In this document: positions 12,978 through 33,764 of the stretch, one piece after another
How positions within the stretch are numbered: the stretch's first letter is position 1
How the letters are laid out: every line of letters begins with the position of its first letter
Origin: Bacteroidota bacterium
GTDB taxonomy: Bacteria; Bacteroidota; Bacteroidia; Bacteroidales; FEN-979
Direction: 5' to 3'
DNA length: 64,000 nt
Assembly: GCA_026391715.1 (NCBI GenBank)
Contig: JAPLDO010000077.1
Coordinates: forward strand, 17,736 to 81,735
Program-made: the position numbers and the translations under genes
The notes under the pieces: generated by a model
Databases searched by the model: none
What the model was told of the DNA's origin: nothing
The model's input: only the letters and a program-made list of their open reading frames with translations

Positions 12978-13134
12978 TTTATCCTTGAAATAAAGTACTC
13001 GGGGGAAACAATTTTATATCTCAACCACCTTCATACTCTCCTCCCCAAACTGCGAAATCATCCTGACCGCGATTTTCTGACCTCTCTTTTTGATTTCGAT
13101 CGGATGTGAAATGTGGCCATACAACCGGTCGAAA
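12978..13134. repeat. direct repeat copy A (3' end of mod plus its downstream flank), partner at 20081-20238
   Basis: By-eye alignment gives roughly 85-90 percent identity over about 157 nt, including the noncoding tttatccttgaaataaa lead-in. Confidence 0.8.
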
Positions 13135-15584
13135 GCCTCTTCGTCAATTTCGATGTGCAGGGTTTTTTCGGCTTTCTTCCGGGCGTCCTGTTTGGCGGCT
13201 TCGCCGAGTCCTTTCCGCCATTTGTCGAATTCATGGGCGTCGCCGCCACAGAAAAAGATCTGTTTCACGATGAAGTTGCTTCCGTCGTAATCATCGTCAA
13301 TCATCCAGTAGGCAATGTCGTGGATGTTGCGGGGTTTCACCTCGTCTTTGATTGGATCGTAAATATCGAGACCCTGGATCTCCACCGAAACGGTATTCCC
13401 GCTTTTGTGGATGGCAATATCGGGTTCGCCGATGGTGACAAAGCTGGCCGCCGATTTTGCCGGTTTCTTTTTCAAGCCTTCCTGCAACAGATCGTCGTGG
13501 ATTCGCGCTTTGGTCACTTCAAACGCGCCCACGCTGGTGGTTTGCAAACCACCGGAAATGTCGCTCTCGAAACTGAAACCGAGGATCACCAGCCAATCGG
13601 CATCGCCCCGGTTGCGGCACTCTTTGATGGCGTTGTTCACCGAATTCCGGCTCACCGTCCCGAATTTCGGCCCGATGTGGAAATAGGCTTTGGCTTCGCC
13701 TTTGGCGGTCTGGTAAAACCCTTCGGCATGAAGTTCGGTATGGCCCAGCAATTCGATGCGGGTAAAAACCACATGTTCATCTTTACGCCCGTTCTTCACC
13801 CCCGCGCTGATCAGGTGCTGCCTGATCACCTCCTCAAACGCCCCTTCGGCTTCGTTCACGCGGATTTCGTCGTCCAACTCTTCCGGGCTTACCGGCTCAA
13901 AGTTCTGCAAAGTCTCCACCGTGAACGGGCCGCTCACCCTAAGTTTGCCCCGGTCAACTTCCGGCTGGTCGTAAAGCGTTTCGGTGGCGGGCGGTTCGTC
14001 GTTGGCAAGGCTTTTCAGGGTGATGTGCGGAACCGTTTTGTAAACAAAGCCCTGCCGGATGTCTTCGCCCTTTTCATCGTAAAGTTTGTAGAACGGAAAA
14101 GTGGCCGTCATCAGCCGCTGTTTGGCAATATTGACCGCGATCCGGCTGGTATCAATGGTGATCCAGCGGCGTCCCCATTGTTCTGCCACGTAAGCGGTGG
14201 TGCCGCTGCCACAGGTTGGGTCGAGGATGAGGTCGCCGGGGTCGGTGGTCATTAAAAGGCAGCGTTGGATAACATAATTGGAAGTTTGTACGACATATTC
14301 TTTACCTTGAGCTGGGGAGGTGTCATCCCAGAAATTATTTATTTTGGAATATGGAAAATCATCATGATAATAGATATAGCTTAAATTATCGCCTTCTACT
14401 TCTAACCTGTCTTTGGTTGCAAGTATGCTCATTTTATCCTTGGAAGTCACCCAACACCCACCTTTTGGGGGAATAAAACTTTTATTTTTAAAATTGAACT
14501 CATATACGTTTGCTTCAGAAAATGAAGGGGCTCGTTGAGAAACGAGGCGATAGACTTTACTCCCTTTGGGTAAGAGGAGAATGTTGTCTCCTTCTTCTTT
14601 GGTTAGTTTTCTTCTTAATCCATCAGATAATTCTAAGTTTGTCCATCGTGACTCAATTTTAGGTTGGGTTTCTTTATACAAAGCTCTGTATTTGATTTTT
14701 TCACCATTCTTTGAATACCAGACAAGAAAATCACACATTCCTTCGAGAGTTACCGACCCTAAAGGCATCAGTTTTTTTCTAAACGGAATCAAGCTCACAA
14801 AATTCTCGCTCCCAAACACCTCGTCCATCACGCTTCTCACGAGGTGCACGTTTTCATCGCTGATCTGCACGAAGCACGAACCGCTTTCGGTGAGCAGCTC
14901 TTTGGCGATCAGCAAACGGTCGCGCAGATAGGAGAGGTAGGAGTGGATGCCCAGTTCCCAGGTGTCGCGGAAGGCTTTGATTTGTTCCGGTTCGCCGGTG
15001 AGCGCTTCGTCGCTGCCATCTTTCACGTCGCGGTTGTTCATTTTGATCTGCCAGTTTCCGCCGTATTTGATCCCATAAGGCGGGTCGAAATAGATGGTTT
15101 GCACTTTGCCTGCCATCCCTTCGCGTTCCAGCAAACTTGCCATCACCAGATGGCTGTCACCCTGGATGAGGCGGTTGGTCCAGCCATCCTGGTGGCGGTA
15201 ATATTCGCCAACCTTTTCCAGTTCGTCTTTTTCAAGGGCATTGCCAAAAATGGTGTTCATGTCGAAAAGCCCTAACTGGTCGCTTTTCGTTTCGGCGATT
15301 TTATAGAGGTTCTTGATGAGCCTTTCCGGCGCGATGTGCTCATGGCGGTACAGGCTGCGGATGTCCACGCGCAAAAGGTCGTCGCGGTCGTCGTTCCCGT
15401 ATTTGTTCAGCCAGAACAGTTCCGGATCCTGGCCGCGGTGTGTCACCGGGTTTTTAGGCAAATCCAAAACCTTATGGCCCGATTTTACATTCTCGTTTGC
15501 CTCTTCGTAACCAGCCTCTTCCCTGCTGGGGATGTGGGCGCGGGTGTCGTTGGTGTGCTTGATGCTGTCGATGCTTTTTGCCAT
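13014..15584 (-). CDS. mod: type III restriction-modification Mod subunit (N6-adenine DNA methyltransferase, beta-class motif order) with a long C-terminal extension
   Basis: Motif [10 protein letters not shown] lies upstream of motif [16 protein letters not shown], with a roughly 200-aa variable region between them. The ORF track start is 15650; the internal ATG at 15584 avoids overlap with the NYN gene. Confidence 0.85.
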
Positions 15585-15597
15585 GAATATTCGGTTT

Positions 15598-16224
15598 TTA
15601 TTTCGTATCAGAGTGATTCCACTTTGAAGGCCGATGGAGAACATGTCCATCTTTCTTGATTATTTCGTCGGGGAATAGGCTGTCTTTCAATTTTTTTCGA
15701 CCAATTGTAAAGGAAGCATTGGCAGCATTTTGTAATTCAAATGAAAAACGGGAAGGTGGAAATGCAATCACAATCTGCTTTTCCGGGAATAATTTCCTGA
15801 TGTGTTTGATGGTTCCTATCAGATCGCTATCCGCTGAGATCAGGATGGCAACATCAAAACTGTTTAGAAATGCATCAGCAAGCATCTCTACGGCGATATT
15901 GACATCGGTCATTTTTTCATTAGGCCGCATCATTACGTGGCCACATTTATTACAAGTAAGGCTGTTTGTCTGGTACTTCCCGTAGAACACCTTTAATTCA
16001 GGTATGGTTTCCAACGCCTCAATATATGTAGTTTGTCGTTGAGCTTTATCGGGTGGCAAAGAGATACGGGAAGTAAAATACTTGACCCGATGCAAGGATT
16101 GACATGGCTTTAACAAATTTGTGGCAAGTCTGAAGAGGTTGAGCCAATAATAACGTTTCCATCCCTTCTCTTTCAATCCGAAATAGAGATTGAAACCATC
16201 AATATACGTTATAACTTTCTGCAT
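15598..16224 (-). CDS. NYN/LabA-like (PIN-fold) domain protein, predicted nuclease
   Basis: 208 aa. N-terminus [10 protein letters not shown], central DVNIAVEML and ILISADSDL acidic motifs typical of NYN domains, and a CNKCGH insert. It lies between res and mod. Confidence 0.75.
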
Positions 16225-16333
16225 AAAAATTTGGAATATTTGTCAATTATGCCTTATCTTTGTTGTTCAATTAACAGCGCCGCAGATAGCATCTGCGGTT
16301 TGACGATCCCGGCCCTTGGTCGGGACGTTTATT

Positions 16334-19300
16334 TTAAAGGCTGTTGATTTCATCCGCCAACTGGTTTTTTATGTTTCGGATATCGTTGGCAATCTCGATG
16401 AAATGCCATTCCGGATATTGAAACTTCTCCTTCATGGCATTCACCGCAGGTATCCAGCGGTTCTCCACGAACCATTTTTTTTCCTCCTTATCAGTGTTGA
16501 TACCGCTGATCTCAATCATCAGGTTTTTGATGGCGCCGTCCCTGCCTCTGCACCTGGCGATGAAATCGGGGAAGTAATTCCTCTCCTTTCCCTCTTTTAC
16601 ATAAGGAACGGCAAACCCTAAAAACTGGTTTTTCACATAGCTGACCACCTGGGGCAGTTCCTCCAGCGCCTTGGCAGCAATTCCCTCCCAACCACTGTCC
16701 ATGACCACGTAGTTGACGTGGCTTTTCCGGGTAGGATAAACCTCTTTGATGGTATTTCCATTCACATATTTCGTGCTGCCGAATCGGTTGTAATAGTTGA
16801 ACACGGGGCGGATATGTTCCGAAGTGTTGATTTGGGGGTTAATGCCCCGTGCGATATGGTCAACCAGTTTTTTGGGTTCCTCGAAAAACAGGAGGCGCTT
16901 GTATCGCTGATCTTCGATGTTGAGCAAAACTACTTTTGTTTGGTACCAGTCGGTCACGATGGATTTCAGCTTGTTGAACTTCTGGAAATTGGGGTTTCCT
17001 TCATCATCGGAGAAGTGAAACTTTATCAATTCTTTGGTGAGCCGGAAAATGATCTCCTGGTCGCGTTTTTCAAGCACCGATTGTATCCGGATGCTGATCT
17101 CTTCAGGGGAAAAGGCGCTGGCGAGTTGTGTTTCAATGGGGGTGGTGTCGCCCCGGATCTCATAGTTTTCAATTCCGCTGAAATCATATTTGATGGGGCC
17201 ATCGTAATTTTCAATCCGGTAGCCCACCACATTGGGGAATTCGATCTCCATGGTTTCCTGGCGTTCGCGCATGGCGGCAATGTGGATCAAATCAACAGGC
17301 GGAGGGGGCGTTTCGGTTTTTCCCCCTTTGAACATTTTAAATGGAACTCCAATGATATGGGCGTATTCCGGCGGAAATTTATAGACGACGGTTTTTCGCT
17401 TATCTTCCGTGGGATTTCCCTCCTTGTTGTAACCCTGGAGGAAGTAGTTCATCCGGCGAAGGGCACGCCCGGCTACCTGCTCGCACAACAGTTGCGATCC
17501 AAATGCCCGAAGTCCCATGATGTGCGTAACCGTATTGGCATCCCAGCCTTCGGTGAGCATGGAGACGGAGACCACGCATCGGATGTGGGAGCCCAGCCGG
17601 TTGGGCTTGCCCACGGTATTCACCACCTCCCTTAATATTTCAGCATCGGTGATCCTTTCGATGCTGCCTTGCCCATGAAGCCTCGCGTAGTCCTTTTTGA
17701 ATTCTTCAATTTCCGATGAAAAAATTTTCTTGAAATCATCGTTGATCTGGTCGCTATCTTCAAGTGCATCGCTGTCTATCAACAAGGTTGGCGGCCTTTT
17801 CACCGGCTTTTTGGTTACCGGGTCATAATTGCTGAACAGATCCTTGGCGCCTGAAACGGTTACCAGTTGTCCAGTCTCATCGGGATACTCATAACCGGCA
17901 ATATATTTATAAACCTCCTTGGAAACAGAGGTATTGTTGCAGACCAAAATAAAGACCGGTGGCGAGGAGAACAGATTTGTTTTTTCCTCCTGGTTTTTTC
18001 TGACGCCTTGATAATAATCGACATAGTGCCCATAAAATTGATCCAGGGCCGATTTCACCAAGGAAGGCAATCGGGGAGGCAACTCTTTTACTTTTTGTCC
18101 CTCTTTGGCCGCTTCCGATTTTTGTTTTTTCTGGCCTTTCCGGGGCAATTCATCTTTCACATGGTCATATAAATTTCTCAGGACTGGCATTGACAGTTCC
18201 TGCGTATTGTCGCTTTCGGGCAGAAACGGGATTTTCACCAACCCGGCTTCAATGGCCTCGATCAGGCCAAAGTCAATAACAACCCAAGGAAAAAGACTAT
18301 AAGGCGGGTAGCCGGAACCGGTCAGATAGTAAGGGGTTGCCGACAGATCGTAGATGTTCTGAAGTTTGAACCGCCTGGAAAGTTCTTTTATGCCCGTAAA
18401 CCAAACAGCGGCCCGTTGGTTTTCGTCGGCCTCTTCATTGTCAGAGGTTTTCCCTTTTGATTTAGGAAGATAGCAATGATGTGCCTCATCGTTCATCAGC
18501 AATAATCTTGTTCCGGATTTGAATTTGCTCAAAGAACGTTTGATCACCTGCGCAAAATCTTCCAAATTCCCGGTTTCTGCTTTCCTGCCCTGAAGATCAA
18601 CTTTTCCATCGAAAGGGCTTCGTTTGTTACCTTTCAGTGTTTTTGGTTCAAAGGTGTGATAGTTGGTGATGATCAAACGGGCGTTCAGGTTTTCCAGCCG
18701 GTGTTCAAGTTTTTGGGGAACAAGCGCCCGGATGTGATAATAGTCTTGTATGTCGGCAGGATTCTTTGTTTTGGTATCCACGAATAAAACCCCGAGCCGG
18801 TCTTTGATGGTGACGCCGGGGGTCACGATCAGAAAATAGTCGGCAAACCGTATGTCGTTCCGGTATTCCTGCCTGTTGAAATAGTGATAGAGGATGAAAC
18901 AAGCCATCACGACAGTTTTTCCTGAGCCGGTGGCCATTTTGAAAGCGATCCGGGGCAATTGGTCAGATGCGTCAAAGCCCGCTGTTTTCTGGCCTTCCCT
19001 GAGCTTATTCAGGATATTCTGGCCCGCGTTTGATTTTTCGGCGACCTCATTGAGCCACACGGCGGTTTCTACGGCTTCACGTTGGGCGAAAAAGAGTTGT
19101 TGGGTGGCATGGCGTTCCGGGTTTACGAACCAAAAAAGGAGAAGTTCACGGGTAACCCTGGTTGTATTCGGATAATTGTCATTCCTCCATTTTCCCACCT
19201 CTTTGCGACAAAGGTTGATCAGATGGTTTCCATATTCTTCGGCAAAATCATTGATTTCCAAAAGATTTGCCTGCGGGTCTTTTTGTCTGGTTGGAATTGC

Positions 19301-19450
19301 CTGTCCTTCGCTGTCGGGGTCGAATACCCGTCGGCCCGGAATAATTCTGGTATAATCCAACGAACCTTTTTCAACACCGGTTGCGATGGTTGCATAATGA
19401 AATTTTGGCTCGTCATACGGGCTGTTCAGGATGGGATTTTCTGGACTCAT
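16334..19450 (-). CDS. res: type III restriction enzyme Res subunit (SF2 helicase plus C-terminal PD-(D/E)xK nuclease)
   Basis: Walker [13 protein letters not shown] box [10 protein letters not shown], helicase motif VI-like QVAGRALRR, and the C-terminal YFPDFIAR...LMIEISG nuclease core. The ORF track start is 19498; Met at 19450 ([12 protein letters not shown]) is more likely. Confidence 0.85.
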
Positions 19451-19523
19451 GGATGGAAAAAGGCCAAAGTTAATCTTATTTCTATAATAGAAACACAACA
19501 GATGATTACCCCCTTGACCTCCT

Positions 19524-25323: not shown

Positions 25324-26808
25324 CTATTTGTAGATAATCCTGGTTCTTCCTTTTATGGCTCCATCCCGGTCGGAGATGGTCAGAATATACAAACCGGAGG
25401 CATTGCCATCGCGACTGAGGATAAACTGATTTGAAGATGCTTTTCCTGAACAAACGCTGATCCCTGAATATGTATAGAGGGTGTAATTCCATGAATCATC
25501 CGGGTTAAAACCTTGAAGGGTTACCTGAACCTCCGTTTCGGCTGGGTTTGGCGCTACCTTAATCCCTGTTTGTACCTTCGCCACTTTGCTTTCTATGCTT
25601 AACAGTGTGAAGCAATCGGTGGTAATGGGAGTTCCCCACGAAATCGTCCCCTTTTTGTAGTAAACCAGGTTTTCTTCCATTTGCGCGAAGTAAGGCGGGT
25701 CGGCCTGATACCAGTAAGTTCTTGTCCTGCCAAGCCCTTCGGTGTAATTCCCGGACGATATTGTCCAACTATATCCATTACCCGTTCTCCAGCAGGTATC
25801 GCCGCCATTCCATGCCTGGGTAAACAGAAAACCACCCCAACTAATCCCCTTCTGCCTGCGTTCGGGGAAGTACTGGGTAGAAAACCAATAGTCATCCGCG
25901 GAAAAATCTTCACGAATAAACTCGCCCGGCAGTCTGGAGAGCCACGAACTCTGAGGATTTTCGAGGAAATTGAATGTTTCCGCAATTGTGTCGTAAACCG
26001 TTGAATAATAAGGGTAAGTAGTCGACCACAACTGTTGACAATGTTCCAGGGTATATTTCACCGAATCTAACCCATAGTCAGTACGGGAAAGGACCTTCAT
26101 GATTGTTTTCCAACTGGCAGTATTCATCGCCAATCCTGTAAAATGAAATTCATCCCCGACATTGTAATCATATATTTCGTGCCATGTCAGGTTCTGAATC
26201 CCAACAGCCGGAACACTTTTCCCTGCAAGCGTGTAAAAGGTGGTATCGTTGGGAACCGAAAACACATCCAGCATCCGCGACAGCCCCCAATGCTGGCTGA
26301 GCCTGATGGATTTTTGATTCAGAAGATGCGCAATGTTGTTGTTCCCGGCGTCTTTTGCCTGAAGGGTGATAACTTTTACGGCATCCGGCGCTCCGAGAAC
26401 GCTGTCGGAAATGACCGAAGTCACTTTTGCCTCAAGGTATCCGTTTGCAGCAAGGGGACAAAACCGCCACGATTGATTTAAGGCTGCCTGCGTATTGATC
26501 TTTAGCGAATCACCGTTGCGGTTGAACAGGTAAAACCAGCCGGTTTGGGTTTTGTAAATTTTCCTGCCAAGAATGGAACCGTTTGTTGTATCAAGACAGC
26601 CGGTGTCCGCAAGGGTTCGTATCGCCCTGTAGGAGAAAAACAGGGTATCGCCAACCCCGACCGGGAGCGCGGAATCGCTCCTGAATGCAATGAAATAATT
26701 ATCCGGGCTTCGGTAAAACGTGATGCCGGGTGTACAGATATTCTGGTAATTCTGAGCGCCCAGGATGTTGATCCAGAAAAAAAATAGCGGAAATAATAGT
26801 TTCTTCAT
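25324..26808 (-). CDS. hypothetical T9SS-secreted protein
   Basis: Signal peptide MKKLLFPLFFFWINILGA. The C-terminal VAPNPAETEVQVTLQGF...GLYILTISDRDG resembles a T9SS sorting domain. Confidence 0.65.
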   Translation of the reverse strand: MKKLLFPLFFFWINILGAQNYQNICTPGITFYRSPDNYFIAFRSDSALPVGVGDTLFFSYRAIRTLADTGCLDTTNGSILGRKIYKTQTGWFYLFNRNGDSLKINTQAALNQSWRFCPLAANGYLEAKVTSVISDSVLGAPDAVKVITLQAKDAGNNNIAHLLNQKSIRLSQHWGLSRMLDVFSVPNDTTFYTLAGKSVPAVGIQNLTWHEIYDYNVGDEFHFTGLAMNTASWKTIMKVLSRTDYGLDSVKYTLEHCQQLWSTTYPYYSTVYDTIAETFNFLENPQSSWLSRLPGEFIREDFSADDYWFSTQYFPERRQKGISWGGFLFTQAWNGGDTCWRTGNGYSWTISSGNYTEGLGRTRTYWYQADPPYFAQMEENLVYYKKGTISWGTPITTDCFTLLSIESKVAKVQTGIKVAPNPAETEVQVTLQGFNPDDSWNYTLYTYSGISVCSGKASSNQFILSRDGNASGLYILTISDRDGAIKGRTRIIYK

Positions 26809-27618
26809 TGTGTCAGTTTCGGAAACCGTAAAGTTATTTTAAATTTACACAAAAACAAACACGTTTTTTCTGTGGGATTTGTAACTTGAATTTGAGGCTT
26901 GGAATTTTTTAAATGCGCAGTTTTATTACGTTATAAGTATTTCAGGAGAACTTAATCTGGGCTGAGTCTCTGTATAACTGCCATCAAGGAATATATTTAA
27001 GTAAATCTATAAGGTAGTTATTGGGAATATCTTCCTGTTCTGAATTATCATAAATTGAAAGTAGAAACACCTCCGATTGACTTACTTTCAGATGGGTGAT
27101 AATCCGGCTCCTCCCGATTTTCCTTTGCTTTTACTCGAAATCGCAAGTCGAATTTTAAAACAATTATTTCCCGGCGGAGAACAACCATCAGGAACTGGTA
27201 ATTGAACTTTTCAGCCACCATGCAAACGCCACAAGGATCGTGGTGGCATCGAGGCATGAGGAGACGGAGGTGTTTTGTGTGTAAAAGGATGAGATGTTAT
27301 ATTCCTATGACAATAGGACATCTGCCGGAATTCCCAATTCACGATGAAACAATCTGGCAATCTCAAGAGTCAATGGGATCCGGTTTTGGAATAACCTAAC
27401 CTGGATAAACCAGAAATGACAAAGAACAATAAACAAAACGCAAATAAATTCGAAAATTTTAAAATTTTAAAATTCAAAAACAAGACCGGTAAAGTCTATT
27501 CTTACTATTTGAAATTTTGAGATTTGTGTTTGCTTTTTATTTGTTGTTTGCATTTTGAATTTTGTAATTTGTGCCAATAAAAACATCAATTTCAAAAATA
27601 AGACACTAATGCAGGTCT

Positions 27619-30276
27619 TCATATTGCCTGATCAATTGCCGCCGAAACCTTCAAAAAATACCGGTTCAGCAACCGTTCCTGGGGTTCAGGGATTTCAGCC
27701 AGTTCATCAAAAGGCATAAGTTTGTCTTTCCTTTCCAGGTCGGTCCTATCATATTCGCTCTGGTAGGTTTTTATAAATTGGATGCTTTTTAAATCTTCAT
27801 TGTTCTGAAAATTACATTCGCGCAACAAGACCGGGATGATCGTATAACCTTCCGATTTCCGACGTTCCAGCATCTGTTTGAACTCGTCGCCCATGCAATA
27901 TTTCGATCCAAAAAACGACGGACTGACCAGCAATATACCGATATTCGACTCCTTCAATGCCTTCTGAATTTTGTCGTTCCAGTCGCCGCCAACAGGGATT
28001 TCGACATCCGACCAAACCGTGCCGAATTTGTTTTTCGCGCTTGCGAGATGAACCTTCAGTCGTTGCTCGAAGATTTTTCTTAAATACCGGTCGGCTGTTG
28101 AATAGGAGATGAAAATCTTATTGGCGGACATTTCCTTGCCCTGAAAAAATTCATCATTGGCATAAATTTCATGAAGCATTTTATCTATCGCGACCCGTTT
28201 TTTTCCGATTTTGCAGAAGATGGTTTTCTCCCCGGCTTCGATGTTCGATTTGATATAATCGAGGTCATAAAAATTTGGCGTATCGCTTTTGTCGCATGTC
28301 TCACAATTGCACACTATCATTTCATTGCACACGATATATGGGAACGTGTTTGAATGGATGTGCTCAACCTCCTTGCGGATGGTCCGTAAAAACGCCCGGC
28401 GTTTCTCGGCAATACTGCCGGCTACTTTGATTCCAATGTATTTCAACCCTTCGCTGGTTGTTTCCTGTTGCAGTACTTCGGCCGTGCAGGGCTCTTTTTT
28501 GTCGTCATCCTGAAATATGGCGCCGGTCAGCCAAACTTTTTCACCCAGAATTCTATCATGGAGCCGCACGATCAGCCTGCTCATTAATCCTTCGGGCATG
28601 AATGGATACTGAAACCTGAAATGCAACTTGTCGCCTTTTCCCAAATCATAATCCGTCCTTGAATCGGGCAGTTTCATCGGGACAACATAATTGCCGGGTC
28701 TATATGGCAACTCGTAACAAATATCAAATTTATCCTTCAACATCAAATTGAGCAAAAACACACACTCGGCATTCTTATAAGGTTGCCTGTGTTTTTCGGT
28801 ACATTGTTTAGATAGCCAGTGGCTGTATAGCGCATGCAGGTTAAACTCACCATTTTTGTCAATGACCAGGGTGTCGCTTAAAACATCGTAAATTGCCTGT
28901 GTTATCCAGTTTGGATCCAGAAAAACGGTGTTCTGAAGATTGGCGTCGTTAAAATTCAGGGCGATTCCTATTTTGTGATAATATTCCAGCAGAAAATCAA
29001 TATCGCTGGTATCTTCCAACCCACATTTCCTGGAGATTTCCTCAAAATCATCCCGCAAAATATATTTCTGATTGCGTAAAATGTCAATTTCCTCCCGGAT
29101 TTTTTTCCAGGGTTTGATGATCGTCTGTCCAACAATGGGAAGCGACGATAAACAGGAAGCAATTTTCTCCTCAAAAGCATCCCATGTACGATTCAGGTTG
29201 GCAAAGTCAATTTCACCACAGTTGAAGATGTTCAACTCCCTGAAAATGTCCCTGAAACCCTTTTCATCGAACGGAATCACCGTGTCGCTTTTTTTGTGGC
29301 GGTTGAGCAGGACGAGGACCGGGCTTTTCTTTCCCAATAAATTGATGATGTGGAACCAATAGCCGTAACGCGTTTTTCCGCTTCTTCCGTCGGTAATCAG
29401 GACATATACCGAATCGTCGGTCAAAAAATACTGATGAAGCATATACTGGATATCCTGGCCACCGAAATCCCAGATGTGCGCTTTTATCTTTGGCAACGAT
29501 TTTACCGGATTTTCGAACTCCCGGTTTGGCCTTACTTCGATTCCCAACGTGGAGGGTTGTTCGGGTTGCGGCACTTTAAAGCCCCTGTCGAACAGCAATT
29601 CCATCAATGTGGTTTTTCCGGCGCCGGGTTCGCCCACGATCAGAATCTTTGCCTCATACGCTTTTTCGGTGGAATATTTTAACGCCTGCTTAAACCATTC
29701 AACGGTTTTCGCCTTGCCCCCATCCACAATCTCTTTGGGCGGCGCGGTGATCGTTTCATTTTTCTCAAAATTGAAATCAAACCCCTCCTTCGCAAAAAAC
29801 CCAGCCAGTTCCGACAAATCAACGAGGTTGTTTTGATGGAGGTACAAATGCTTTAGCGACGGAAAATCGCTCACGGGTAAGTCAATCCGGGAGATTGCGT
29901 TACGGCTCAGATCAATAAGATCGAGTTTCGGAAAGGCGCCTTCAAAACGGATCTCTTCCATCCCATTCCCAAATAAAAAGAGTGTTTGAAGGTTGGGGCA
30001 ATTTTTAACGACCATCTTCTTTATCCCACAGTTGTTGGCGTTCAGATAGCGCAAGCGGGGTTGAGGGGTTTCAAAAACCAGTTCGGTCAAATCAGGATCT
30101 TGTTGTTTTTCGTCTTTTTTTTCGTCCTCTTTGTCATTGCCAAGATAGACGAATTCATAACCGGTGGTGGTTTCGTCGAAGACAAAACGTTTGTTTTTGA
30201 TCTTCGATTTTATTGATGGGATTGCCAACTCGAGGGTTGTTAAGTCGGCGTGGGTGTAATCGGTAGATGTTGTCAT
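27619..30276 (-). CDS. ROCO-type protein with C-terminal TIR domain (LRR - Roc GTPase - COR - TIR)
   Basis: LRRs (NCPNLQTLFLFGNGM, LIDLSRNAISRIDL, LKHLYLHQNNLVDL). Roc P-loop GEPGAGKTTL, WDFGGQ and the NRHKK NKxD-like motif. A long COR-like middle region. The last roughly 130 aa are TIR-like (KIFISYSTADR...ILLVSPSFFGSKYCMGDEF...IIPVLL). Confidence 0.8.
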   Translation of the reverse strand: MTTSTDYTHADLTTLELAIPSIKSKIKNKRFVFDETTTGYEFVYLGNDKEDEKKDEKQQDPDLTELVFETPQPRLRYLNANNCGIKKMVVKNCPNLQTLFLFGNGMEEIRFEGAFPKLDLIDLSRNAISRIDLPVSDFPSLKHLYLHQNNLVDLSELAGFFAKEGFDFNFEKNETITAPPKEIVDGGKAKTVEWFKQALKYSTEKAYEAKILIVGEPGAGKTTLMELLFDRGFKVPQPEQPSTLGIEVRPNREFENPVKSLPKIKAHIWDFGGQDIQYMLHQYFLTDDSVYVLITDGRSGKTRYGYWFHIINLLGKKSPVLVLLNRHKKSDTVIPFDEKGFRDIFRELNIFNCGEIDFANLNRTWDAFEEKIASCLSSLPIVGQTIIKPWKKIREEIDILRNQKYILRDDFEEISRKCGLEDTSDIDFLLEYYHKIGIALNFNDANLQNTVFLDPNWITQAIYDVLSDTLVIDKNGEFNLHALYSHWLSKQCTEKHRQPYKNAECVFLLNLMLKDKFDICYELPYRPGNYVVPMKLPDSRTDYDLGKGDKLHFRFQYPFMPEGLMSRLIVRLHDRILGEKVWLTGAIFQDDDKKEPCTAEVLQQETTSEGLKYIGIKVAGSIAEKRRAFLRTIRKEVEHIHSNTFPYIVCNEMIVCNCETCDKSDTPNFYDLDYIKSNIEAGEKTIFCKIGKKRVAIDKMLHEIYANDEFFQGKEMSANKIFISYSTADRYLRKIFEQRLKVHLASAKNKFGTVWSDVEIPVGGDWNDKIQKALKESNIGILLVSPSFFGSKYCMGDEFKQMLERRKSEGYTIIPVLLRECNFQNNEDLKSIQFIKTYQSEYDRTDLERKDKLMPFDELAEIPEPQERLLNRYFLKVSAAIDQAI

Positions 30277-30348
30277 GAAAAATATTTAAACTGCATATCT
30301 GCTAAAAACAAGTTGATTTTTCTTGTGCTTATATCATTTGGTTCCATA

Positions 30349-30507
30349 TTATGTCATCCCTTCGGGATTCTGTTCCAACTCAATCTTTTCAATCTATTAT
30401 CATGTCATCCCTTCGGGATTTGTAGGATTTTTTTGTAAACCCCGAAGGGGTGACATGATTATAGAACGGATTGGAAAACCCGATATTGAACCCCGAAGGG
30501 GTGATAT
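30349..30507. repeat. nested inverted array of four 18-nt hairpin motifs (2 forward atgtcatcccttcgggat, 2 reverse accccgaaggggtgaca/t)
   Basis: Copies at 30349-30369, 30402-30420, 30439-30456 and 30490-30507. Each contains a ccc-ttcg-ggg or cccc-gaag-gggg mini-hairpin. The inner pair and the outer pair are mutually complementary. Confidence 0.8.
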
Positions 30508-30742
30508 TATTCTTCATACCATTAATCGCTATATGTGCACTTCTCGGCAACGTGACCTAACCAAATTTAAAATCCAGTACTTTTCATACCTCAAAAAAAC
30601 AGGGTTTTCGCCAAAACTATCCGGCTTTGGGTACTAACCCTGCGCTTAATCGACGCTGCACGAGCGCCATATTCGCCGCCGTTAATATGGCGGGCAGGGA
30701 CAATAATCTGTTCGATGGAAGCTATCCGGCTATTCCTTTGAG

Positions 30743-30875
30743 CTACGGGACGAAGGCGAGGCGGAAGCCGAGATTGTTGTTGCGGTTGTCGGGGGTGTTG
30801 TTGTTGCGGTTGCCCCGTCGGCAGTTGAACGCATTGTTGATCCACGAGCCGCCGCGATTCACGCGGTTCGAACCC
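30743..30875 (-). repeat. DGR template repeat (TR)
   Basis: 133 nt aligns without gaps to 32536-32668. All 17 mismatches are T on the + strand, i.e. A on the coding strand, in this copy. The in-frame reading is Asn-rich (AAC/AAT codons). Confidence 0.92.
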
Positions 30876-30879
30876 ACGA

Positions 30880-31875
30880 TTATTGCCCTATATTGCAAAG
30901 AACTTTTTTACGAAAATACAAACTATCGGCATGAAAAACAAAAGCGTTTAAAGCCAATGCATGATGTTGAAATTCGGATTGGGACCATATTCCGGTTTCT
31001 AATAAGCCGGTAAATTCTTTCATTTTATGTTGGTAGCGTTTCCTGCTTCGCGCTGCAAGGTGTGTTTTTTCGGGAAAAATCAAATATCCCACAAAAGTCA
31101 ACCCTTTGGAACACCGGTTTAAATCGGCTGTTTTTAAACACAACCCGAGTTGTTCTTCCAAAAATATTGTGATTTTTTTGCCTGTTTCTTTCAAAATATC
31201 TTTGTTGTTGTGCCAGATAATAAAATCATCCGTATACCGGATATAGGCAGGCGAATGTAATTGGCTTGTAACATAATGGTCGAGCAATCCCAAATAATGG
31301 TTGGCAAAATACTGGCTTGTAAGGTTTCCAATTGGCACGCCTTGTCCGGTTTTGGTATGATAGGAATTGATTATTCTGTCGAAAATACCGAGCAGAACTT
31401 CATCTTTGAATTTCCGCTCCAGCATTTTTTGAAGAATACAATGTGAAATGCTGTCAAAATATTTGCGAACATCAAATTTAAAATACCACTGGTATTCTTT
31501 TTGAAACCGCTTGGCGCGTTCCAGAGCTTTATAGGTTCCCTTTCCAATCCGGGTGGCATAACTGTCGAATATCTGATATTTCTCGAAACATGGATGACAA
31601 ACATTCATCAAAGCATGATGCAGAACCCGTTCATTAAAATCGGCCGCGCAAATCTGCCTTTCCTTTGGGTCGTAAATGGTAAAATAATGGTAGTTGCCAA
31701 CGGAAACATTTCCGGTTATTATCTGGCGTTGAAGAATGGTTAAATTTTCATCCAGGTTTTTACTATATTCTACCACCGTAGGCTGATGTTCTTTGCCTTT
31801 TTTTGCTTTGAAATATGCCAGGTACAGATTATCAAAACAGGATATCTGTGGGATCAGGTTTCCCGCTCGTTTCAT
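30880..31875 (-). CDS. DGR reverse transcriptase
   Basis: 331 aa. RT motif 4 IGNLTSQYFAN (the DGR-typical SQ signature) and catalytic YTDD. Small, with no maturase or endonuclease domains. TR is immediately downstream. Confidence 0.92.
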   Translation of the reverse strand: MKRAGNLIPQISCFDNLYLAYFKAKKGKEHQPTVVEYSKNLDENLTILQRQIITGNVSVGNYHYFTIYDPKERQICAADFNERVLHHALMNVCHPCFEKYQIFDSYATRIGKGTYKALERAKRFQKEYQWYFKFDVRKYFDSISHCILQKMLERKFKDEVLLGIFDRIINSYHTKTGQGVPIGNLTSQYFANHYLGLLDHYVTSQLHSPAYIRYTDDFIIWHNNKDILKETGKKITIFLEEQLGLCLKTADLNRCSKGLTFVGYLIFPEKTHLAARSRKRYQHKMKEFTGLLETGIWSQSEFQHHALALNAFVFHADSLYFRKKVLCNIGQ

Positions 31876-32314
31876 TCATTTCAGCGTTAAATATTTTTAT
31901 AATTGTCGCTCCGTATTTATCTGTTTTTTTATCGCCGACGCCTTTAATGCTTTTTAGTTTGTTTATGGTTAGTTCCGGGAGTTTCGCCATTTCGGCAAGT
32001 TCGGCGTCGGTAAAAACAACATACGCCGATACGCTATCGTCAAAAGCAATTTTCTTTCGTATCTCGCGTAGCTTTGAAAACCTGGCAAAAACTTCGGGTT
32101 CAAGTACTTTCATATAATCAATTCTTTCTTTTGTTGCATATTCAGGTATATTGGTTAAAATATAGCTGATATAAATGCACCAATAAACGCCATTAGGAGT
32201 TTGAATCAATTGTTTCTCGATCTCTACAACTTTGTTTGACCGTAAAAAAGTGTTCAGTTCGTCGTTGTAATCATTTACCGAAGTAATCGGAATAGTAAAA
32301 AACCTGATTTGCAT
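31832..32314 (-). CDS. DGR accessory protein with C-terminal HRDC-like domain
   Basis: 160 aa. The C-terminal half (VFTDAELAEMAKLPELTINKLKSIKGVGDKKTDKYG) is HRDC/helix-hairpin-helix-like. It lies between target and RT and overlaps the RT start by 44 nt. Confidence 0.7.
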   Translation of the reverse strand: MQIRFFTIPITSVNDYNDELNTFLRSNKVVEIEKQLIQTPNGVYWCIYISYILTNIPEYATKERIDYMKVLEPEVFARFSKLREIRKKIAFDDSVSAYVVFTDAELAEMAKLPELTINKLKSIKGVGDKKTDKYGATIIKIFNAEMNETSGKPDPTDILF

Positions 32315-32535
32315 AAAGCATCAAAATTATTTGTGTAAAATATCAATTGAAAAATTCTCTCTGTGTATTCTTGTGCAACTCGGTGAAAAAAAATTTTCCG
32401 CCTACGTCGGGTTTTTAGTTCGTAAACCCTAAAAAAACACGCTTCACTCGGCTACCGCCTCGTTTCGCTTTGTTTTTTTTGGATTTACTCACCGCCCCTG
32501 TGCTCAAAGGAATAGCCGAATAGCATGCCACCGAA

Positions 32536-32668
32536 CTACGGGACGAAGGCGAGGCGGAAGCCGAGAGAGTCGTCGCGGTTGCCGGGGGTGCTGTTGATGC
32601 GGTCGCCCCGACGGCAGTAGAACGCATCGTAGAGCCACGAGCCGCCGCGAACCACGCGGCGCGAACCC
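32536..32668 (-). repeat. DGR variable repeat (VR) at the 3' end of the target gene
   Basis: See the TR entry. VR encodes GGSWLYDAFYCRRGDRINSTPGNRDDSLGFRLAFVP; TR encodes GGSWINNAFNCRRGNRNNNTPDNRNNNLGFRLAFVP. Confidence 0.92.
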
Positions 32669-33345
32669 GAATCTGCGCCAACCGGGTTTTCCGTCTTTCT
32701 TTTGTCGTATTTGCCATACCAGTCCCAGCGCCATTCCCAAACGTTCCCGCTCATGTCGTACAAGCCAAACGCATTCGGGAATTTTAACCCCACGGGTTTG
32801 GTTTCATATTTATTGTTTTTGTCGTACCAGCCAACGAGGTCGAGGTGGGAACTGCCGGCGTATTGGTTTTTTTTCAAATTCGACGGGTTTTGAAAACCCG
32901 TCGGATTTGAAGCATACTCCCCTTCCGCCTCGGTTGGCAGGCGAAAACCGGAAGCGGCAGGGTTAAGTTTAAACTTGTCAAGGTCCTTTTCCGACAGGTT
33001 ATCTAATTTTAAAAGATCCGAACCCCTGACCAACCCCAAACGTTCTAATTCACGGTTCAGGATTCCGCAAAACTTAACGGAATCGTACCACGAAACCTGT
33101 TCAACCGGATGTTGGTCGCCTTTAAAATTTGACGGATCGTTGCCTGCAACCTCTTTATAAAACTCCTGCGTTACCGGGAATTGCGCCATGCAAAAGGAGT
33201 TTACTTTTACTGTTTGGCCATCTTCACGTTGAAATGAGCCGCCGGGGATTGATACGAGGTTAACCGTTAACTGTTTGTCGGGTGACTGATTTTGAAAATT
33301 CAATTGATACCCGGTATCGGTTTGCTTTAGTTCTATTGGTTTCAT
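32536..33345 (-). CDS. DGR variable target protein, FGE-sulfatase / C-type-lectin fold, no signal peptide
   Basis: 269 aa with FGE-type motifs (HPVEQVSWYD, GLYDMSGNVWEW, RVVRGGSW). The C-terminal 44 codons are the VR. The N-terminus is hydrophilic. Confidence 0.9.
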   Translation of the reverse strand: MKPIELKQTDTGYQLNFQNQSPDKQLTVNLVSIPGGSFQREDGQTVKVNSFCMAQFPVTQEFYKEVAGNDPSNFKGDQHPVEQVSWYDSVKFCGILNRELERLGLVRGSDLLKLDNLSEKDLDKFKLNPAASGFRLPTEAEGEYASNPTGFQNPSNLKKNQYAGSSHLDLVGWYDKNNKYETKPVGLKFPNAFGLYDMSGNVWEWRWDWYGKYDKRKTENPVGADSGSRRVVRGGSWLYDAFYCRRGDRINSTPGNRDDSLGFRLAFVP

Positions 33346-33440
33346 GCCAATGGTTTTATTTACGACTGAATGAAATAAGATTTATCCGGTATTATCTGAT
33401 GCTCCGGGCGCCTTATGAAGAACAAATATACTAGAAAAAA

Positions 33441-33523
33441 TTCCAGGTTCAAGGTTCCAGGTTCAAGGTTCAAGGTTGCAGGTTCAAGGTTCAAGGTTCC
33501 AAATTCCAGGTTCCAGGTTCCAG
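33441..33523. repeat. heptanucleotide tandem repeat (TTC[A/C]AGG) about 12 units, with 3 inverted units at 33584-33604
   Basis: Counted directly. It lies 96-180 nt upstream of the DGR target start codon, in a divergent intergenic region. Confidence 0.9.
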
Positions 33524-33764
33524 CGAAAAGAGATCGAGTCAAGATTGAACAAGACGTGAAAGCAAGGATTTGAAATTTGAGACCTGGAATTTGGAATTTG
33601 GAACTTGTAATCAAAATGTCTTAATTTTGAACGTTTGTATTATAACATATAACATATTATGACCTATAACCCAAAAACCAACGATGAACTCATTCAAGAG
33701 GTTGAAAGACCCTGTTCTTTATCGAGTTTTCAAGAAACGAGTCCAACCAAACTGAATACCCAAT

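What the first reader, a model, noticed from the sequence alone, without database searches (positions are those of the whole stretch)
27619..33345. Candidate composite conflict system: DGR-diversified cytoplasmic binder directly upstream of an LRR-Roc-COR-TIR protein
Seen in the sequence: five elements lie on the minus strand with no other CDS between them. In order they are the DGR target (33345-32536), HRDC accessory, RT, TR (ending at 30743), a structured 465-nt spacer, and the 885-aa LRR-Roc-COR-TIR gene (30276-27619). The target has no signal peptide or TM segment and is little more than the diversified ligand-binding fold. Established: DGR C-type-lectin/FGE folds are programmable binding surfaces. 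Roc-COR is a GTPase switch module. Bacterial TIR domains act as NAD+-consuming or signal-producing effectors in Thoeris and related immune systems. Inference: a hypervariable stand-alone sensor, a GTPase switch with an LRR interaction surface, and a TIR effector could form one sense-switch-kill system. I recall reports of DGR targets linked to NTPase-type conflict proteins in some bacteria, but I cannot verify that here. I know of no described system with a separate DGR binder plus a ROCO-TIR.
Basis: partly seen in the sequence, partly recalled or inferred. Interest (0 to 1): 0.85.

Follow-up and report, generated by a model that had tools for sequence, protein, structure and literature searches.

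The report
Hypermutable sensor paired with ROCO-TIR protein
A bacterial gene cassette that hypermutates a small intracellular binding protein is conserved next to a GTPase-switch protein carrying a TIR "kill" domain, which points to a split sensor-plus-executioner immune module; the general idea had been predicted computationally, but this split form has never been analysed or tested.

Summary
On the minus strand lie a complete diversity-generating retroelement (DGR) and an 885-aa LRR-Roc-COR-TIR gene. The DGR has a TvpA-like FGE/C-type-lectin target without a signal peptide, an HRDC accessory gene, an RT and a TR. 17 of the 18 TR/VR differences sit at TR adenines.

ROCO relatives at 30-77% identity, in at least six tree positions and with different flanking genes, have FGE-type genes within 5 kb and none at 5-10 kb. 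In one relative a single TR matches VRs in FGE genes on both sides of the ROCO-TIR gene. The FGE-ROCO pairing survives loss of the RT. Split variants exist (ROCO-EAD11 plus EAD11-TIR; TIR plus FGE; ROCO plus five FGE paralogs).

The "structured spacer" is composite: a conserved DGR RNA 3' element plus window-specific hairpin repeats.

Novelty is lower than claimed. Kaur et al. 2020/2021 and Doré et al. 2024 described DGR-diversified FGS sensors in NTPase-gated conflict systems, and one supplementary row lists FGS-?-RVT-ROCO. I classify it as a new variant of a known kind. The mechanism remains inferred.

The parts
32536..33345 (-). DGR target gene. It encodes a 269-aa stand-alone FGE/C-type-lectin-fold protein with no signal peptide. 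The closest solved relative is the Treponema denticola variable protein TvpA.
   Evidence: Pfam FGE-sulfatase E=1e-40. PDB 2y3c E=2.7e-36 over residues 41-268. N-terminus read.
32536..32668 (-). Variable repeat (VR): the last 44 codons of the target, including the stop.
   Evidence: 87% identical to the TR; 17 of 18 differences in the 136-nt repeat are at TR adenines.
32502..32524 (-). Inverted copy of the first 23 nt of the TR-downstream element, lying 12 nt after the VR. Possible target-recognition or hairpin element; role unexplained.
   Evidence: Inverted repeat I1. One mismatch to the reverse complement; also present in L087 and L168 but not in L001, L167, L169 or L170.
31832..32314 (-). 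HRDC-domain DGR accessory gene (160 aa), overlapping the RT start by 44 nt.
   Evidence: Pfam HRDC E=7e-16. The same gene lies between target and RT in L001, L167, L169, L170, L018 and L090.
30880..31875 (-). DGR reverse transcriptase (331 aa) with the IGNLTSQ and YTDD motifs.
   Evidence: Pfam RVT_1 E=8e-14. PADLOC generic RT model E=4e-39. Sequence.
30743..30875 (-). Template repeat (TR): 31 adenines, 16 variable codons, about 1e17 possible protein variants.
30585..30742 (-). Conserved structured element immediately 3' of the TR, ending in a stem plus T7. Proposed DGR RNA 3' domain, possibly also a terminator.
   Evidence: Nearly invariant in the window, L001, L167, L169 and L170; the first ~48 nt are also conserved in L018 and L090; 11 pairs show compensatory changes. 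No Rfam family matches.
30347..30511 (.). Four nested inverted hairpin repeats (UUCG/GAA loops). MITE-like insertion, absent from related loci.
   Evidence: 4 matches against 0.06 expected; none elsewhere in the window. Absent from the homologous spacers.
27619..30276 (-). LRR-Roc-COR-TIR (ROCO-TIR) gene, 885 aa.
   Evidence: Pfam LRR_4, Roc, COR-A, COR-B and TIR_2. CtRoco 6hlu E=4e-56. ThsB-like TIR E=4e-17.
29692..30276 (-). N-terminal module (aa 1-70) plus LRR (aa 71-195) of the ROCO-TIR protein. Candidate docking surface for the target protein.
   Evidence: An HMM of aa 1-92 hits only FGE-linked ROCO proteins among 170 loci. Identity of this region tracks FGE identity (r=0.90 and 0.93), while Roc identity does not (r=-0.06).
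28141..29691 (-). Roc GTPase (aa 196-345) and COR-A/COR-B (aa 346-712). P-loop GEPGAGKT at 215 and DFGGQ at 270. The G4 position reads NRHK, not the canonical NKxD.
27622..28140 (-). TIR domain (aa 713-885). Glu798 is invariant and aligns with the catalytic Glu of plant TIR NADases.

Best explanation
This is a split, DGR-fed intracellular conflict (immune-type) module.

The DGR consists of the RT, the HRDC accessory protein, and TR RNA with a conserved 3' element. It rewrites 16 codons in the C-terminal ligand-binding face of a small cytoplasmic TvpA-like lectin-fold protein, giving about 1e17 possible variants.

That protein is the detachable, hypervariable sensor of the neighbouring LRR-Roc-COR-TIR protein. 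It most likely docks on the N-terminal module plus LRR. When the sensor captures an invader-derived ligand, the Roc-COR GTPase switch changes state. By analogy with Chlorobium Roco this would be a GTP-driven dimer-to-monomer change. The TIR domains are then free to assemble and consume NAD+ or make a nucleotide signal, arresting or killing the infected cell.

Shown here: the anatomy; adenine-specific TR-to-VR differences; conserved and recurrent FGE-ROCO/TIR linkage; intact P-loop, switch II and TIR Glu.

Inferred: the physical sensor-ROCO contact, the direction of signalling, NADase output, and the immune role.
For: Anatomy and a canonical DGR.

Linkage starting from ROCO:
- Among 163 loci of ROCO relatives, FGE-type hits number 17 within 3 kb, 2 at 3-5 kb and 0 at 5-10 kb. 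Available sequence was comparable: 694, 334 and 683 kb.
- Linked ROCO proteins sit in at least six separate positions of an NJ tree.

Nesting: in L001 one TR matches VRs in FGE genes on both sides of the ROCO-TIR gene (15/15 and 22/22 differences at TR adenines), and the downstream FGE gene starts 2 nt after the ROCO stop.

Full DGR plus ROCO cassettes, each with its own A-biased TR/VR pair, occur in seven loci. These include ROCO-TIRs only about 31% identical, and one has the reversed order (L090: ROCO-TIR, then FGE after a 7-nt gap, HRDC, RT, TR).

FGE-ROCO adjacency persists where the RT and TR are replaced by repeats or by an IS200 transposase (L087, L168, L006).

Split and alternative architectures: FGE + LRR-Roc-COR-EAD11 + EAD11-TIR; TIR, with a weak EAD7 match, followed by FGE after a 4-nt gap; ROCO plus five tandem FGE paralogs.

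The block has different flanking genes in the window, L001 and L167.

N-terminus and LRR identity co-vary with FGE identity, while the Roc-COR core is swapped.

Literature: FGS domains are reported in the C-terminal position of LRR-AP-GTPase-COR proteins, and DGR-linked NTPase-FGS systems are reported (PMC8195603).
Against: - There is no experimental or structural evidence for a target-ROCO contact.
- A conserved stem plus T-run lies between the TR and the ROCO gene, so co-transcription is not assured.
- The N-terminus/LRR-FGE correlation (n = 7-8, related loci) could simply reflect physical linkage, because the 5' end of the ROCO gene lies next to the DGR.
- Most ROCO relatives, including the large Nostocales clade, have no FGE neighbour, and P0012's contig shows none downstream.
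- Distant FGE hits without an RT in view (L079, L083) may not be DGR targets.
- Contigs from different samples encoding an identical ROCO-TIR had identical VRs, so ongoing diversification was not demonstrated.
- The G4 motif of Roc deviates from the canonical sequence.
- The window's immediate neighbours are housekeeping genes, not a defence island.
Confidence: 0.6

Rival explanations
1. The target protein is a partner of ROCO-TIR, but as a negative regulator, bait or decoy (antitoxin-like) and not as an activating sensor. It would hold ROCO-TIR inactive. Invader proteins that bind, modify or destroy it would release the TIR. DGR diversification would then serve to keep up with, or escape, invader-encoded inhibitors.
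For: The same linkage evidence applies. Tight or overlapping gene junctions typical of toxin-antitoxin-like pairs are seen: 2 nt in L001, 4 nt in L171, 7 nt in L090. Kaur et al. discuss decoy-type components in these systems.
Against: A hypervariable inhibitor risks losing its grip on the effector. That risk is smaller here because the VR covers only the C-terminal face. Arrays of five paralogs (L011) fit a repertoire of receptors better than a repertoire of antitoxins. Nothing here discriminates directly between the two models.
Confidence: 0.17
2. These are two independent systems, a DGR with its own unknown purpose and a ROCO-TIR defence gene, that travel together on a mobile or defence island without functional coupling.
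For: - The block has different flanks in different genomes, and mobile or defence genes insert into it: an IS200 transposase in L168 and a HindIII-type R-M pair in L169.
- A terminator-like element separates the TR from the ROCO gene.
- The window spacer carries a MITE-like insertion.
Against: - Adjacency recurs with ROCO proteins only 30-36% identical, in different gene orders and with different effectors.
- FGE stays with ROCO when the RT is lost.
- The ROCO-TIR gene is nested between two VR-bearing targets of one TR.
- 7 of 7 target homologs are next to a ROCO or TIR gene.
- The literature reports FGS in the effector position of these GTPases.
Confidence: 0.1
3. The module is real but is not anti-phage immunity. 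It would be a self/non-self or kin-discrimination and programmed-death circuit in surface-associated or filamentous bacteria, or it would sense a variable endogenous or environmental ligand.
For: Related DGR-NTPase systems are enriched in multicellular or aggregating bacteria. The linked loci come from Saprospiraceae, Chitinophagales and Trichodesmium. There are no phage genes or classical defence genes immediately adjacent in the window.
Against: The sensor is cytoplasmic, with no signal peptide, which fits intracellular invaders better than cell-cell recognition. TIR and EAD architectures are typical of counter-invader systems. A Type III-like R-M lies 8 kb away.
Confidence: 0.1

Closest known systems
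AP-GTPase (Roc)-COR centred counter-invader systems, and NTPase-FGS systems associated with DGRs (Kaur, Iyer, Burroughs, Aravind, eLife 2021, PMC8195603; computational prediction)
   Same: LRR + Roc/AP-GTPase + COR with a variable C-terminal effector (TIR, EADs; FGS is listed). An FGS lectin-fold domain is proposed as the intracellular invader sensor, diversified by a DGR. One supplementary row lists FGS->?->RVT->LRR+AP-GTPase+COR in a Saprospiraceae genome.
   Different: - The main text treats FGS as a domain of the NTPase protein. Here it is a separate 250-300-aa protein, sometimes in two to five copies flanking the ROCO gene.
- The accessory gene is HRDC, not the four-helix Avd mentioned there.
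- The string 'COR+FGS' is absent from their tables.
- The split arrangement, the nesting between two targets, the persistence after RT loss and the mosaic evolution are not described there.
[quoted passage not shown] 2020, PMC7159879; Doré et al. 2024, PMC10907252)
   Same: A hypermutated C-type-lectin/FGS sensor, an NTP-dependent switch, and TIR or peptidase effectors or EAD adaptors. Degenerate loci occur in which MITE-like repeats or transposons replace the RT. Doré's clade 5A loci include a short CLec-only target with TIR genes nearby.
   Different: The switch there is a STAND or MoxR AAA+ ATPase, and the sensor is usually fused to vWA or NACHT. Roc/GTPase is not mentioned by Doré et al.. 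The taxa there are mainly cyanobacteria and gammaproteobacteria, whereas here they are mainly Bacteroidota.
Chlorobium tepidum Roco (CtRoco) and LRRK2-type ROCO proteins
   Same: LRR-Roc-COR architecture; E=4e-56 to 6hlu over aa 93-643; P-loop and DxxGQ intact.
   Different: CtRoco has no TIR and no known input or partner. The window protein has an extra N-terminal module, a TIR C-terminus and a non-canonical G4 motif.
Thoeris and other bacterial TIR defence systems (ThsB-like TIR)
   Same: The TIR domain is most similar to the ThsB model (E=4e-17), with the catalytic Glu conserved.
   Different: No ThsA (SIR2 or Macro-SLOG) partner is nearby. The TIR is fused to a ROCO switch.
TvpA DGR of Treponema denticola, the archetypal FGE-type DGR variable protein
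   Same: The target is homologous over its whole length (E=2.7e-36), with the VR at the C-terminus.
   Different: TvpA is a surface lipoprotein. This target and its relatives lack any signal peptide and are linked to cytoplasmic ROCO/TIR proteins.

Membership tests
Diversity-generating retroelement (DGR) | Reverse transcriptase of the DGR type (RVT_1 with the I/LGxxxSQ and YxDD motifs) | tested here: met
   RVT_1 E=8e-14. IGNLTSQ and YTDD are read in the translation of 31875-30880.
Diversity-generating retroelement (DGR) | TR/VR repeat pair whose differences are confined to TR adenines | tested here: met
   133-136 nt at 87% identity; 17 of 18 differences at TR adenines.
Diversity-generating retroelement (DGR) | Accessory gene (Avd or HRDC) next to the RT | tested here: met
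   HRDC E=7e-16, overlapping the RT start.
Diversity-generating retroelement (DGR) | Target with a C-type-lectin/FGE fold and the VR at its C-terminus | tested here: met
   FGE-sulfatase E=1e-40. TvpA 2y3c E=2.7e-36.
Diversity-generating retroelement (DGR) | Ongoing mutagenic retrohoming (VR heterogeneity within populations) | tested here: inconclusive
   Contigs L001-L003, from different samples, have identical VRs. No reads are available for the window itself.
ROCO (Roc-COR) GTPases | Roc G domain followed by a COR-A/COR-B tandem | tested here: met
   Roc E=3e-19, COR-A E=2e-28, COR-B E=2e-29. CtRoco E=4e-56.
ROCO (Roc-COR) GTPases | Intact nucleotide-binding motifs (G1 P-loop, G3 DxxGQ, G4 NKxD) | tested here: inconclusive
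   GEPGAGKT at 215 and DFGGQ at 270 are present and invariant in the family. The G4 position reads NRHK, not the canonical NKxD.
ROCO (Roc-COR) GTPases | GTP-dependent dimer/monomer cycle | not testable with these tools
   Requires biochemistry.
TIR NADase / signal-producing effectors | TIR fold with a catalytic glutamate | tested here: met
   TIR_2 E=4e-16. Glu798 is invariant in 11 homologs and aligns with the Glu of the plant TIR WCLDEL motif.
Thoeris | ThsB-type TIR protein together with a ThsA (SIR2 or Macro plus SLOG) effector gene | tested here: not met
   The TIR resembles ThsB, but none of the 16 neighbouring ORFs scanned between about 13 and 44 kb has a SIR2, Macro or SLOG domain.
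DGR-diversified NTPase-FGS conflict systems (Kaur 2020/2021; Doré 2024) | FGS/CLec sensor domain diversified by a DGR | tested here: met
DGR-diversified NTPase-FGS conflict systems (Kaur 2020/2021; Doré 2024) | Sensor fused in one polypeptide to the NTPase (STAND, KAP, AP-GTPase) or to vWA | tested here: not met
   The target is a stand-alone 269-aa protein. The top 120 homologs of the target and of the ROCO protein show no FGE-Roc/COR fusion.
DGR-diversified NTPase-FGS conflict systems (Kaur 2020/2021; Doré 2024) | Effector domain (TIR, peptidase and others) or EAD adaptor attached to the NTPase component | tested here: met
   TIR is fused in the window. An EAD11-split version occurs in a relative.
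DGR-diversified NTPase-FGS conflict systems (Kaur 2020/2021; Doré 2024) | Preponderance in multicellular or aggregating bacteria | not tested
   Linked loci come from Mariniphaga/Prolixibacteraceae, Saprospiraceae, Chitinophagales, Bacteroidia MAGs and Trichodesmium. Lifestyles were not assessed.
AP-GTPase-centred counter-invader systems (Kaur 2021, Fig. 6D) | N-terminal LRR + AP-GTPase + COR + variable C-terminal effector | tested here: met
   Relatives carry TIR, EAD7, EAD11 or no C-terminal domain.

The most novel reading that the evidence does not exclude
A stand-alone, DGR-hypermutated cytoplasmic lectin-fold protein works as an exchangeable 'antibody-like' receptor subunit. It plugs into the N-terminal/LRR platform of an invariant ROCO GTPase-TIR signalling chain. 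This would be the first defined physiological input for a prokaryotic ROCO (LRRK2-type) switch. It would also be a two-chain design (variable binder plus constant signalling chain), distinct from the single-chain NTPase-FGS receptors predicted so far. Variants would draw their repertoire from a DGR, from two targets sharing one TR, or from germline arrays of paralogs.
Probability: 0.4. Interest if true: 0.8.

Novelty: new variant of a known kind. Interest (0 to 1): 0.6.

Why it matters
The roles of cellular (non-phage) DGRs and of bacterial ROCO proteins are both unsettled, and no DGR-linked conflict system has been reconstituted. This locus is a compact ~5.7-kb cassette of four genes plus the TR, with intact catalytic motifs and clear relatives that provide natural controls: RT-less loci, two-target loci, EAD-split loci and paralog-array loci. 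If the target binds the ROCO N-terminus/LRR and gates the TIR, it would show how a hypermutable receptor repertoire is wired to an innate-type executioner in bacteria. It would also give the ROCO/LRRK2 field a tractable ligand-input model, and supply a programmable intracellular binder-plus-switch pair.

Tried and rejected
1. Natural VR diversification. Contigs L001-L004, from four samples, encode an identical ROCO-TIR, and their VRs are identical too. L003's 19 differences in the downstream FGE gene look like exchange between paralogs or an assembly artefact. Uninformative.
2. A degraded second FGE gene downstream of the window's ROCO-TIR (26808-27619), or extra VRs anywhere in the window. 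None found.
3. Rosetta-stone fusions among the top 120 homologs of the target and of the ROCO protein. None found.
4. Rfam families in 27-34 kb. Only sub-threshold miRNA-hairpin noise on the repeats.
5. PADLOC system models. Only the TIR (ThsB-like) and a generic RT model match; there are no hits for the FGE protein or the ROCO core.
6. Sigma-70 promoter and terminator scan. Counts are at background and the scan is not suited to Bacteroidota promoters.
7. The N-terminal module as a search query. It found only one 88-aa orphan ORF (L174/L175). I hoped this would mark island boundaries, but the region is rearranged relative to the window.
8. Context of ROCO-EAD7 (P0012). The contig has only 193 nt upstream and unrelated genes downstream.
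9. The inverted copy of the TR-3' element after the VR as a general DGR feature. It is present in only 3 of 9 loci checked.
10. Counting fused versus neighbouring FGS entries in the Kaur 2021 tables. I could only establish that 'COR+FGS' is absent and that one neighbour-type row exists.

Full report
**1. The observation**

- A 269-aa FGE-sulfatase-fold ORF (33345-32536, Pfam E=1e-40).
- A 160-aa HRDC ORF (32314-31832).
- A 331-aa reverse transcriptase (31875-30880), with the IGNLTSQ and YTDD motifs.
- An 885-aa ORF (30276-27619) with LRR_4, Roc, COR-A, COR-B and TIR_2, all above the Pfam cut-offs.

A 133-136-nt direct repeat links 30743-30875 (TR) to the last 44 codons of the first ORF (VR, 32536-32668). 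It is 87% identical, and 17 of the 18 differences are at TR adenines. The TR has 31 adenines in 16 variable codons, which allows about 1e17 protein variants.

The target's closest solved relative is TvpA, the DGR variable protein of Treponema denticola (2y3c, E=2.7e-36). True formylglycine-generating enzymes score about twenty orders of magnitude worse. Neither the target nor 14 of its homologs has a signal peptide or lipobox. The window holds no second VR and no remnant of a second FGE gene.

**2. The ROCO-TIR protein**

Residues 93-643 match Chlorobium tepidum Roco (6hlu, E=4e-56) and, more weakly, LRRK1 and LRRK2. The P-loop (GEPGAGKT, 215) and switch II (DFGGQ, 270) are intact and invariant among 11 homologs. 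The G4 position reads NRHK, not the canonical NKxD. The TIR domain is closest to the Thoeris ThsB model (E=4e-17). Its invariant Glu798 aligns with the catalytic Glu of plant TIRs. No PADLOC model covers the ROCO core or the FGE protein. Scanned neighbours are a NiFe-hydrogenase operon, two T9SS-tail proteins, a dual-specificity phosphatase, a deacetylase and a PAS histidine kinase. A Type III-like R-M system lies 8 kb away. This is not a classical defence island, and there is no ThsA.

**3. Is the neighbourhood conserved? Starting from ROCO**

Close homologs (71-76% identity, same architecture) were looked up.
- L001 (a Mariniphaga MAG) has FGE-HRDC-RT-TR-ROCO-TIR-FGE, with completely different flanking genes.
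- L006 has HU-FGE-ROCO-TIR, without an RT.
- L005 begins with a methylase directly upstream of the ROCO gene. L169 shows that this methylase belongs to a HindIII-type R-M pair inserted between a DGR and a ROCO gene.

I then fetched 160 loci of ROCO relatives from genomes and metagenomes, most at about 30% identity. I searched them with the window's RT, HRDC and FGE proteins. FGE-type hits numbered 17 within 3 kb of the ROCO gene, 2 at 3-5 kb and none at 5-10 kb. The sequence available was comparable: 694, 334 and 683 kb. This far-flank comparison is an internal control.

The linked loci sit in at least six separate positions of an NJ tree of the Roc-COR region. They are mostly Bacteroidota (Saprospiraceae, Chitinophagales, Bacteroidia) plus Trichodesmium. 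The large Nostocales clade has none.

**4. Starting from the target**

The 120 best homologs of the target are all stand-alone proteins of about 250-300 aa. I looked up seven of them (41-78% identity), chosen only for long contigs. All seven have a ROCO or TIR gene adjacent.
- L167: FGE-HRDC-RT-TR-ROCO-TIR.
- L168: FGE-IS200 transposase-ROCO-TIR-FGE.
- L169: see section 3.
- L170: FGE-HRDC-frameshifted RT-TR-ROCO.
- L171: a 290-aa TIR protein (with a weak EAD7 match) ending 4 nt before the FGE gene.
- P0177: FGE, then LRR-Roc-COR-EAD11, then EAD11-TIR.
- L173: FGE, then Roc-COR without a TIR.

The EAD11 split is the pattern Kaur et al. call the EAD principle. It shows that the ROCO and TIR parts are one system even when they are separate genes, and the FGE gene still comes along.

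**5. Nesting, persistence and alternative repertoires**
- In L001 the single TR (9689-9821) matches VRs in both the upstream and the downstream FGE gene, with 22/22 and 15/15 differences at TR adenines. The downstream FGE gene starts 2 nt after the ROCO-TIR stop. So the ROCO-TIR gene lies inside the DGR cassette, between two of its targets.
- Seven loci have their own A-biased TR/VR pair next to a ROCO gene: the window, L001, L018, L090, L167, L169 and L170.
- L090 has the reversed order: ROCO-TIR, then FGE after a 7-nt gap, then HRDC, RT and TR.
- In L087 and L168 the RT and TR are replaced by 75-nt repeat arrays or a transposase, yet both FGE paralogs still flank the ROCO-TIR gene. The FGE-ROCO pairing is therefore more persistent than the FGE-RT pairing.
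- In L011 a TIR-less ROCO is followed by five tandem FGE paralogs and no RT. This would be a germline repertoire in place of a somatic one.

**6. Mosaic evolution**

Segment-wise identities to the window protein differ sharply between loci.

| Locus | N-terminus | LRR | Roc | COR-A / COR-B | TIR | FGE | RT |
|---|---|---|---|---|---|---|---|
| L170 | 81% | 85% | 35% | 27% / 31% | contig ends first | 77% | 78% |
| L167 | 58% | 67% | 33% | 22% / 33% | 69% | 59% | 73% |
| L001 | 47% | 66% | 85% | 75% / 71% | 67% | 59-60% | 74% |
| L087 | 54% | 62% | 85% | 76% / 71% | 68% | 57-60% | absent |

Across eight loci, FGE identity correlates with N-terminus identity (r=0.90) and LRR identity (r=0.93), but not with Roc identity (r=-0.06). 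An HMM of aa 1-92 hits only FGE-linked ROCO proteins among all 170 loci then held. This fits the N-terminal module plus LRR being the partner surface of the target, with the GTPase core an exchangeable cassette. The caveat is that the 5' end of the ROCO gene is also the part physically closest to the DGR, so linkage alone could give this pattern.

**7. The spacer**

The 466-nt gap folds much better than shuffled sequence (z=-5.4), but it is composite.
- The first ~160 nt after the TR are almost invariant in the window, L001, L167, L169 and L170, whose proteins are only 59-78% identical. The first ~48 nt are recognisable even in L018 and L090. Eleven predicted pairs show compensatory changes. 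The element ends in a stem followed by T7. I interpret it as the 3' domain of the DGR RNA. This is by analogy with the spacer region that primes cDNA synthesis in the Bordetella phage DGR, which I state from my own knowledge and did not test. It may also act as a terminator.
- The rest of the gap is not conserved. Its strongest structure is four nested UUCG/GAA-loop hairpin repeats (30347-30511). They occur nowhere else in the window or in the homologous spacers.
- In L001 only about 30 nt separate the conserved element from the ROCO start codon, so read-through or an overlapping promoter is likely there. In the window, transcription across the gap is undetermined.

**8. How it most likely works**

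Shown: an apparently functional DGR that diversifies a small cytoplasmic lectin-fold protein; a ROCO-TIR with intact GTPase and TIR residues; and a conserved, recurrent, architecture-tolerant linkage between the two.

Inferred:
- The lectin-fold protein is a detachable hypervariable sensor that docks on the N-terminus/LRR.
- Ligand capture flips the Roc-COR switch.
- The TIR domains then assemble and consume NAD+ or make a signal, causing growth arrest or death.

I put about 0.85 on functional coupling of some kind and about 0.6 on this mechanism as a whole. The main alternative keeps the partnership but inverts its sign, with the target acting as guard, bait or antitoxin. Pure hitch-hiking now looks unlikely. 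A non-immune recognition role cannot be excluded.

**9. Comparison with what is known**
- Kaur et al. 2020 (PMC7159879) described DGR-linked FGS domains fused to vWA in VMAP ternary systems. They mentioned AP-GTPase plus COR only as a rare domain there.
- Kaur et al. 2021 (PMC8195603) described two things. First, NTPase-FGS proteins in which the STAND module can be replaced by an AP-GTPase, often associated with a DGR RT and a four-helix accessory protein. Second, LRR-AP-GTPase-COR proteins with at least 24 alternative C-terminal domains, including TIR, FGS and EADs.
[quoted passage not shown] The string 'COR+FGS' is absent from their tables.
- Doré et al. 2024 (PMC10907252) showed DGR-diversified CLec sensors on NACHT and vWA proteins. 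They noted short CLec-only targets with TIR genes nearby in RT clade 5A, but they do not mention Roc or GTPases.
- Full-text searches combining DGR with Roc-COR, ROCO or LRRK2 returned no other DGR paper.

So the concept and the components are known from computational work, and the adjacency has been tabulated once. What has not been described:
- the two-chain (split) organisation as a conserved system;
- the nesting of the ROCO-TIR gene between two targets of one TR;
- its persistence after RT loss;
- the paralog-array and EAD-split variants;
- the HRDC-type DGR with its conserved RNA 3' element;
- the N-terminus/LRR-FGE co-variation.

Nothing in this class has been tested experimentally. I therefore rate it a new variant of a known kind, with interest 0.6.

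**10. Limits**

Sampling was capped: 12 context look-ups and one scan per large collection. The tree is a quick NJ tree with long branches. Several linked loci are related to one another. Distant FGE hits without an RT in view may not be DGR targets. No expression, binding or activity data exist.

Noticed in passing
window 30585-30742 (minus strand); also L001:9822-9977, L167:10658-10810, L169:2759-2914, L170:2554-2706: A ~160-nt element immediately 3' of the TR is nearly invariant across DGRs whose proteins are only 59-78% identical. It is partly conserved in two distant HRDC-type DGRs, shows 11 covarying pairs, ends in a stem plus T7, and matches no Rfam family. It is a candidate conserved DGR RNA 3' domain.
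   Followed up: partly
window 30347-30511: Four nested inverted repeats of ~23 nt, each with a CCCC-UUCG-GGGG or UCCC-GAA-GGGA mini-hairpin. They are found only here in the window and are absent from the homologous spacers, so this looks like a MITE-like insertion between the DGR and the ROCO-TIR gene.
   Followed up: partly
window 33427-33604: About 15 tandem 7-nt units (GGTTCAA/GGTTCCA) lie just upstream of the target gene, followed by an inverted copy at 33571-33604. Function unknown (promoter region, or another repeat element).
   Followed up: no
window 32502-32524: Twelve nt after the VR lies an inverted copy (1 mismatch) of the first 23 nt of the TR-downstream element, so TR RNA could pair with the target's 3' flank. 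It is also present after the upstream FGE gene in L087 and L168, but not in L001, L167, L169 or L170.
   Followed up: partly
window 32873-32911: A near-perfect 19+19-nt palindrome lies inside the target coding region. A 39-nt stretch overlapping it matches L174:9936-9974 at 87%, next to the orphan ROCO fragment there. Possibly a small mobile palindromic element.
   Followed up: no
window 13014-19498: A Type III-like restriction-modification pair (N6_N4 methylase, 878 aa; ResIII helicase/nuclease, 1054 aa) on the same strand, 8 kb downstream of the ROCO-TIR gene. A 2059-aa ORF at 6745-12924 was not examined.
   Followed up: no
L011:9875-16095: A TIR-less ROCO gene is followed by five tandem FGE paralogs (about 70-82% nucleotide identity to each other), with no RT or TR in 10 kb. 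This looks like a germline array taking the place of DGR diversification.
   Followed up: partly
L173:8001-14604: An FGE - Roc-COR pair (no TIR) lies next to a NUDIX/NrtR regulator and a NAMPT-type NAD-salvage gene. This is a possible link to NAD+ metabolism, or a coincidence.
   Followed up: no
L174:10001-10267 and L175: An orphan 88-aa ORF, 81% identical to the ROCO-TIR N-terminal module, lies beside hydrogenase maturation genes in a genome ~90% identical to the window at the nucleotide level but rearranged. It is either a remnant of a lost ROCO gene or a free-standing module.
   Followed up: partly
L169:2988-4743 and L005:173-1009: A HindIII-type endonuclease plus N6/N4 methylase pair is inserted between the DGR (after the TR) and the ROCO gene in a close relative. 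So the DGR-ROCO junction tolerates, and may attract, other defence genes.
   Followed up: partly
L087:8792-9859 and L168:9076-10143: Arrays of ~75-nt direct and inverted repeats, and in L168 an IS200-type Y1 transposase as well, occupy the position of the HRDC, RT and TR between the upstream FGE gene and the ROCO-TIR gene. This mirrors the MITE-mediated decay of DGR loci reported by Doré et al. 2024.
   Followed up: partly
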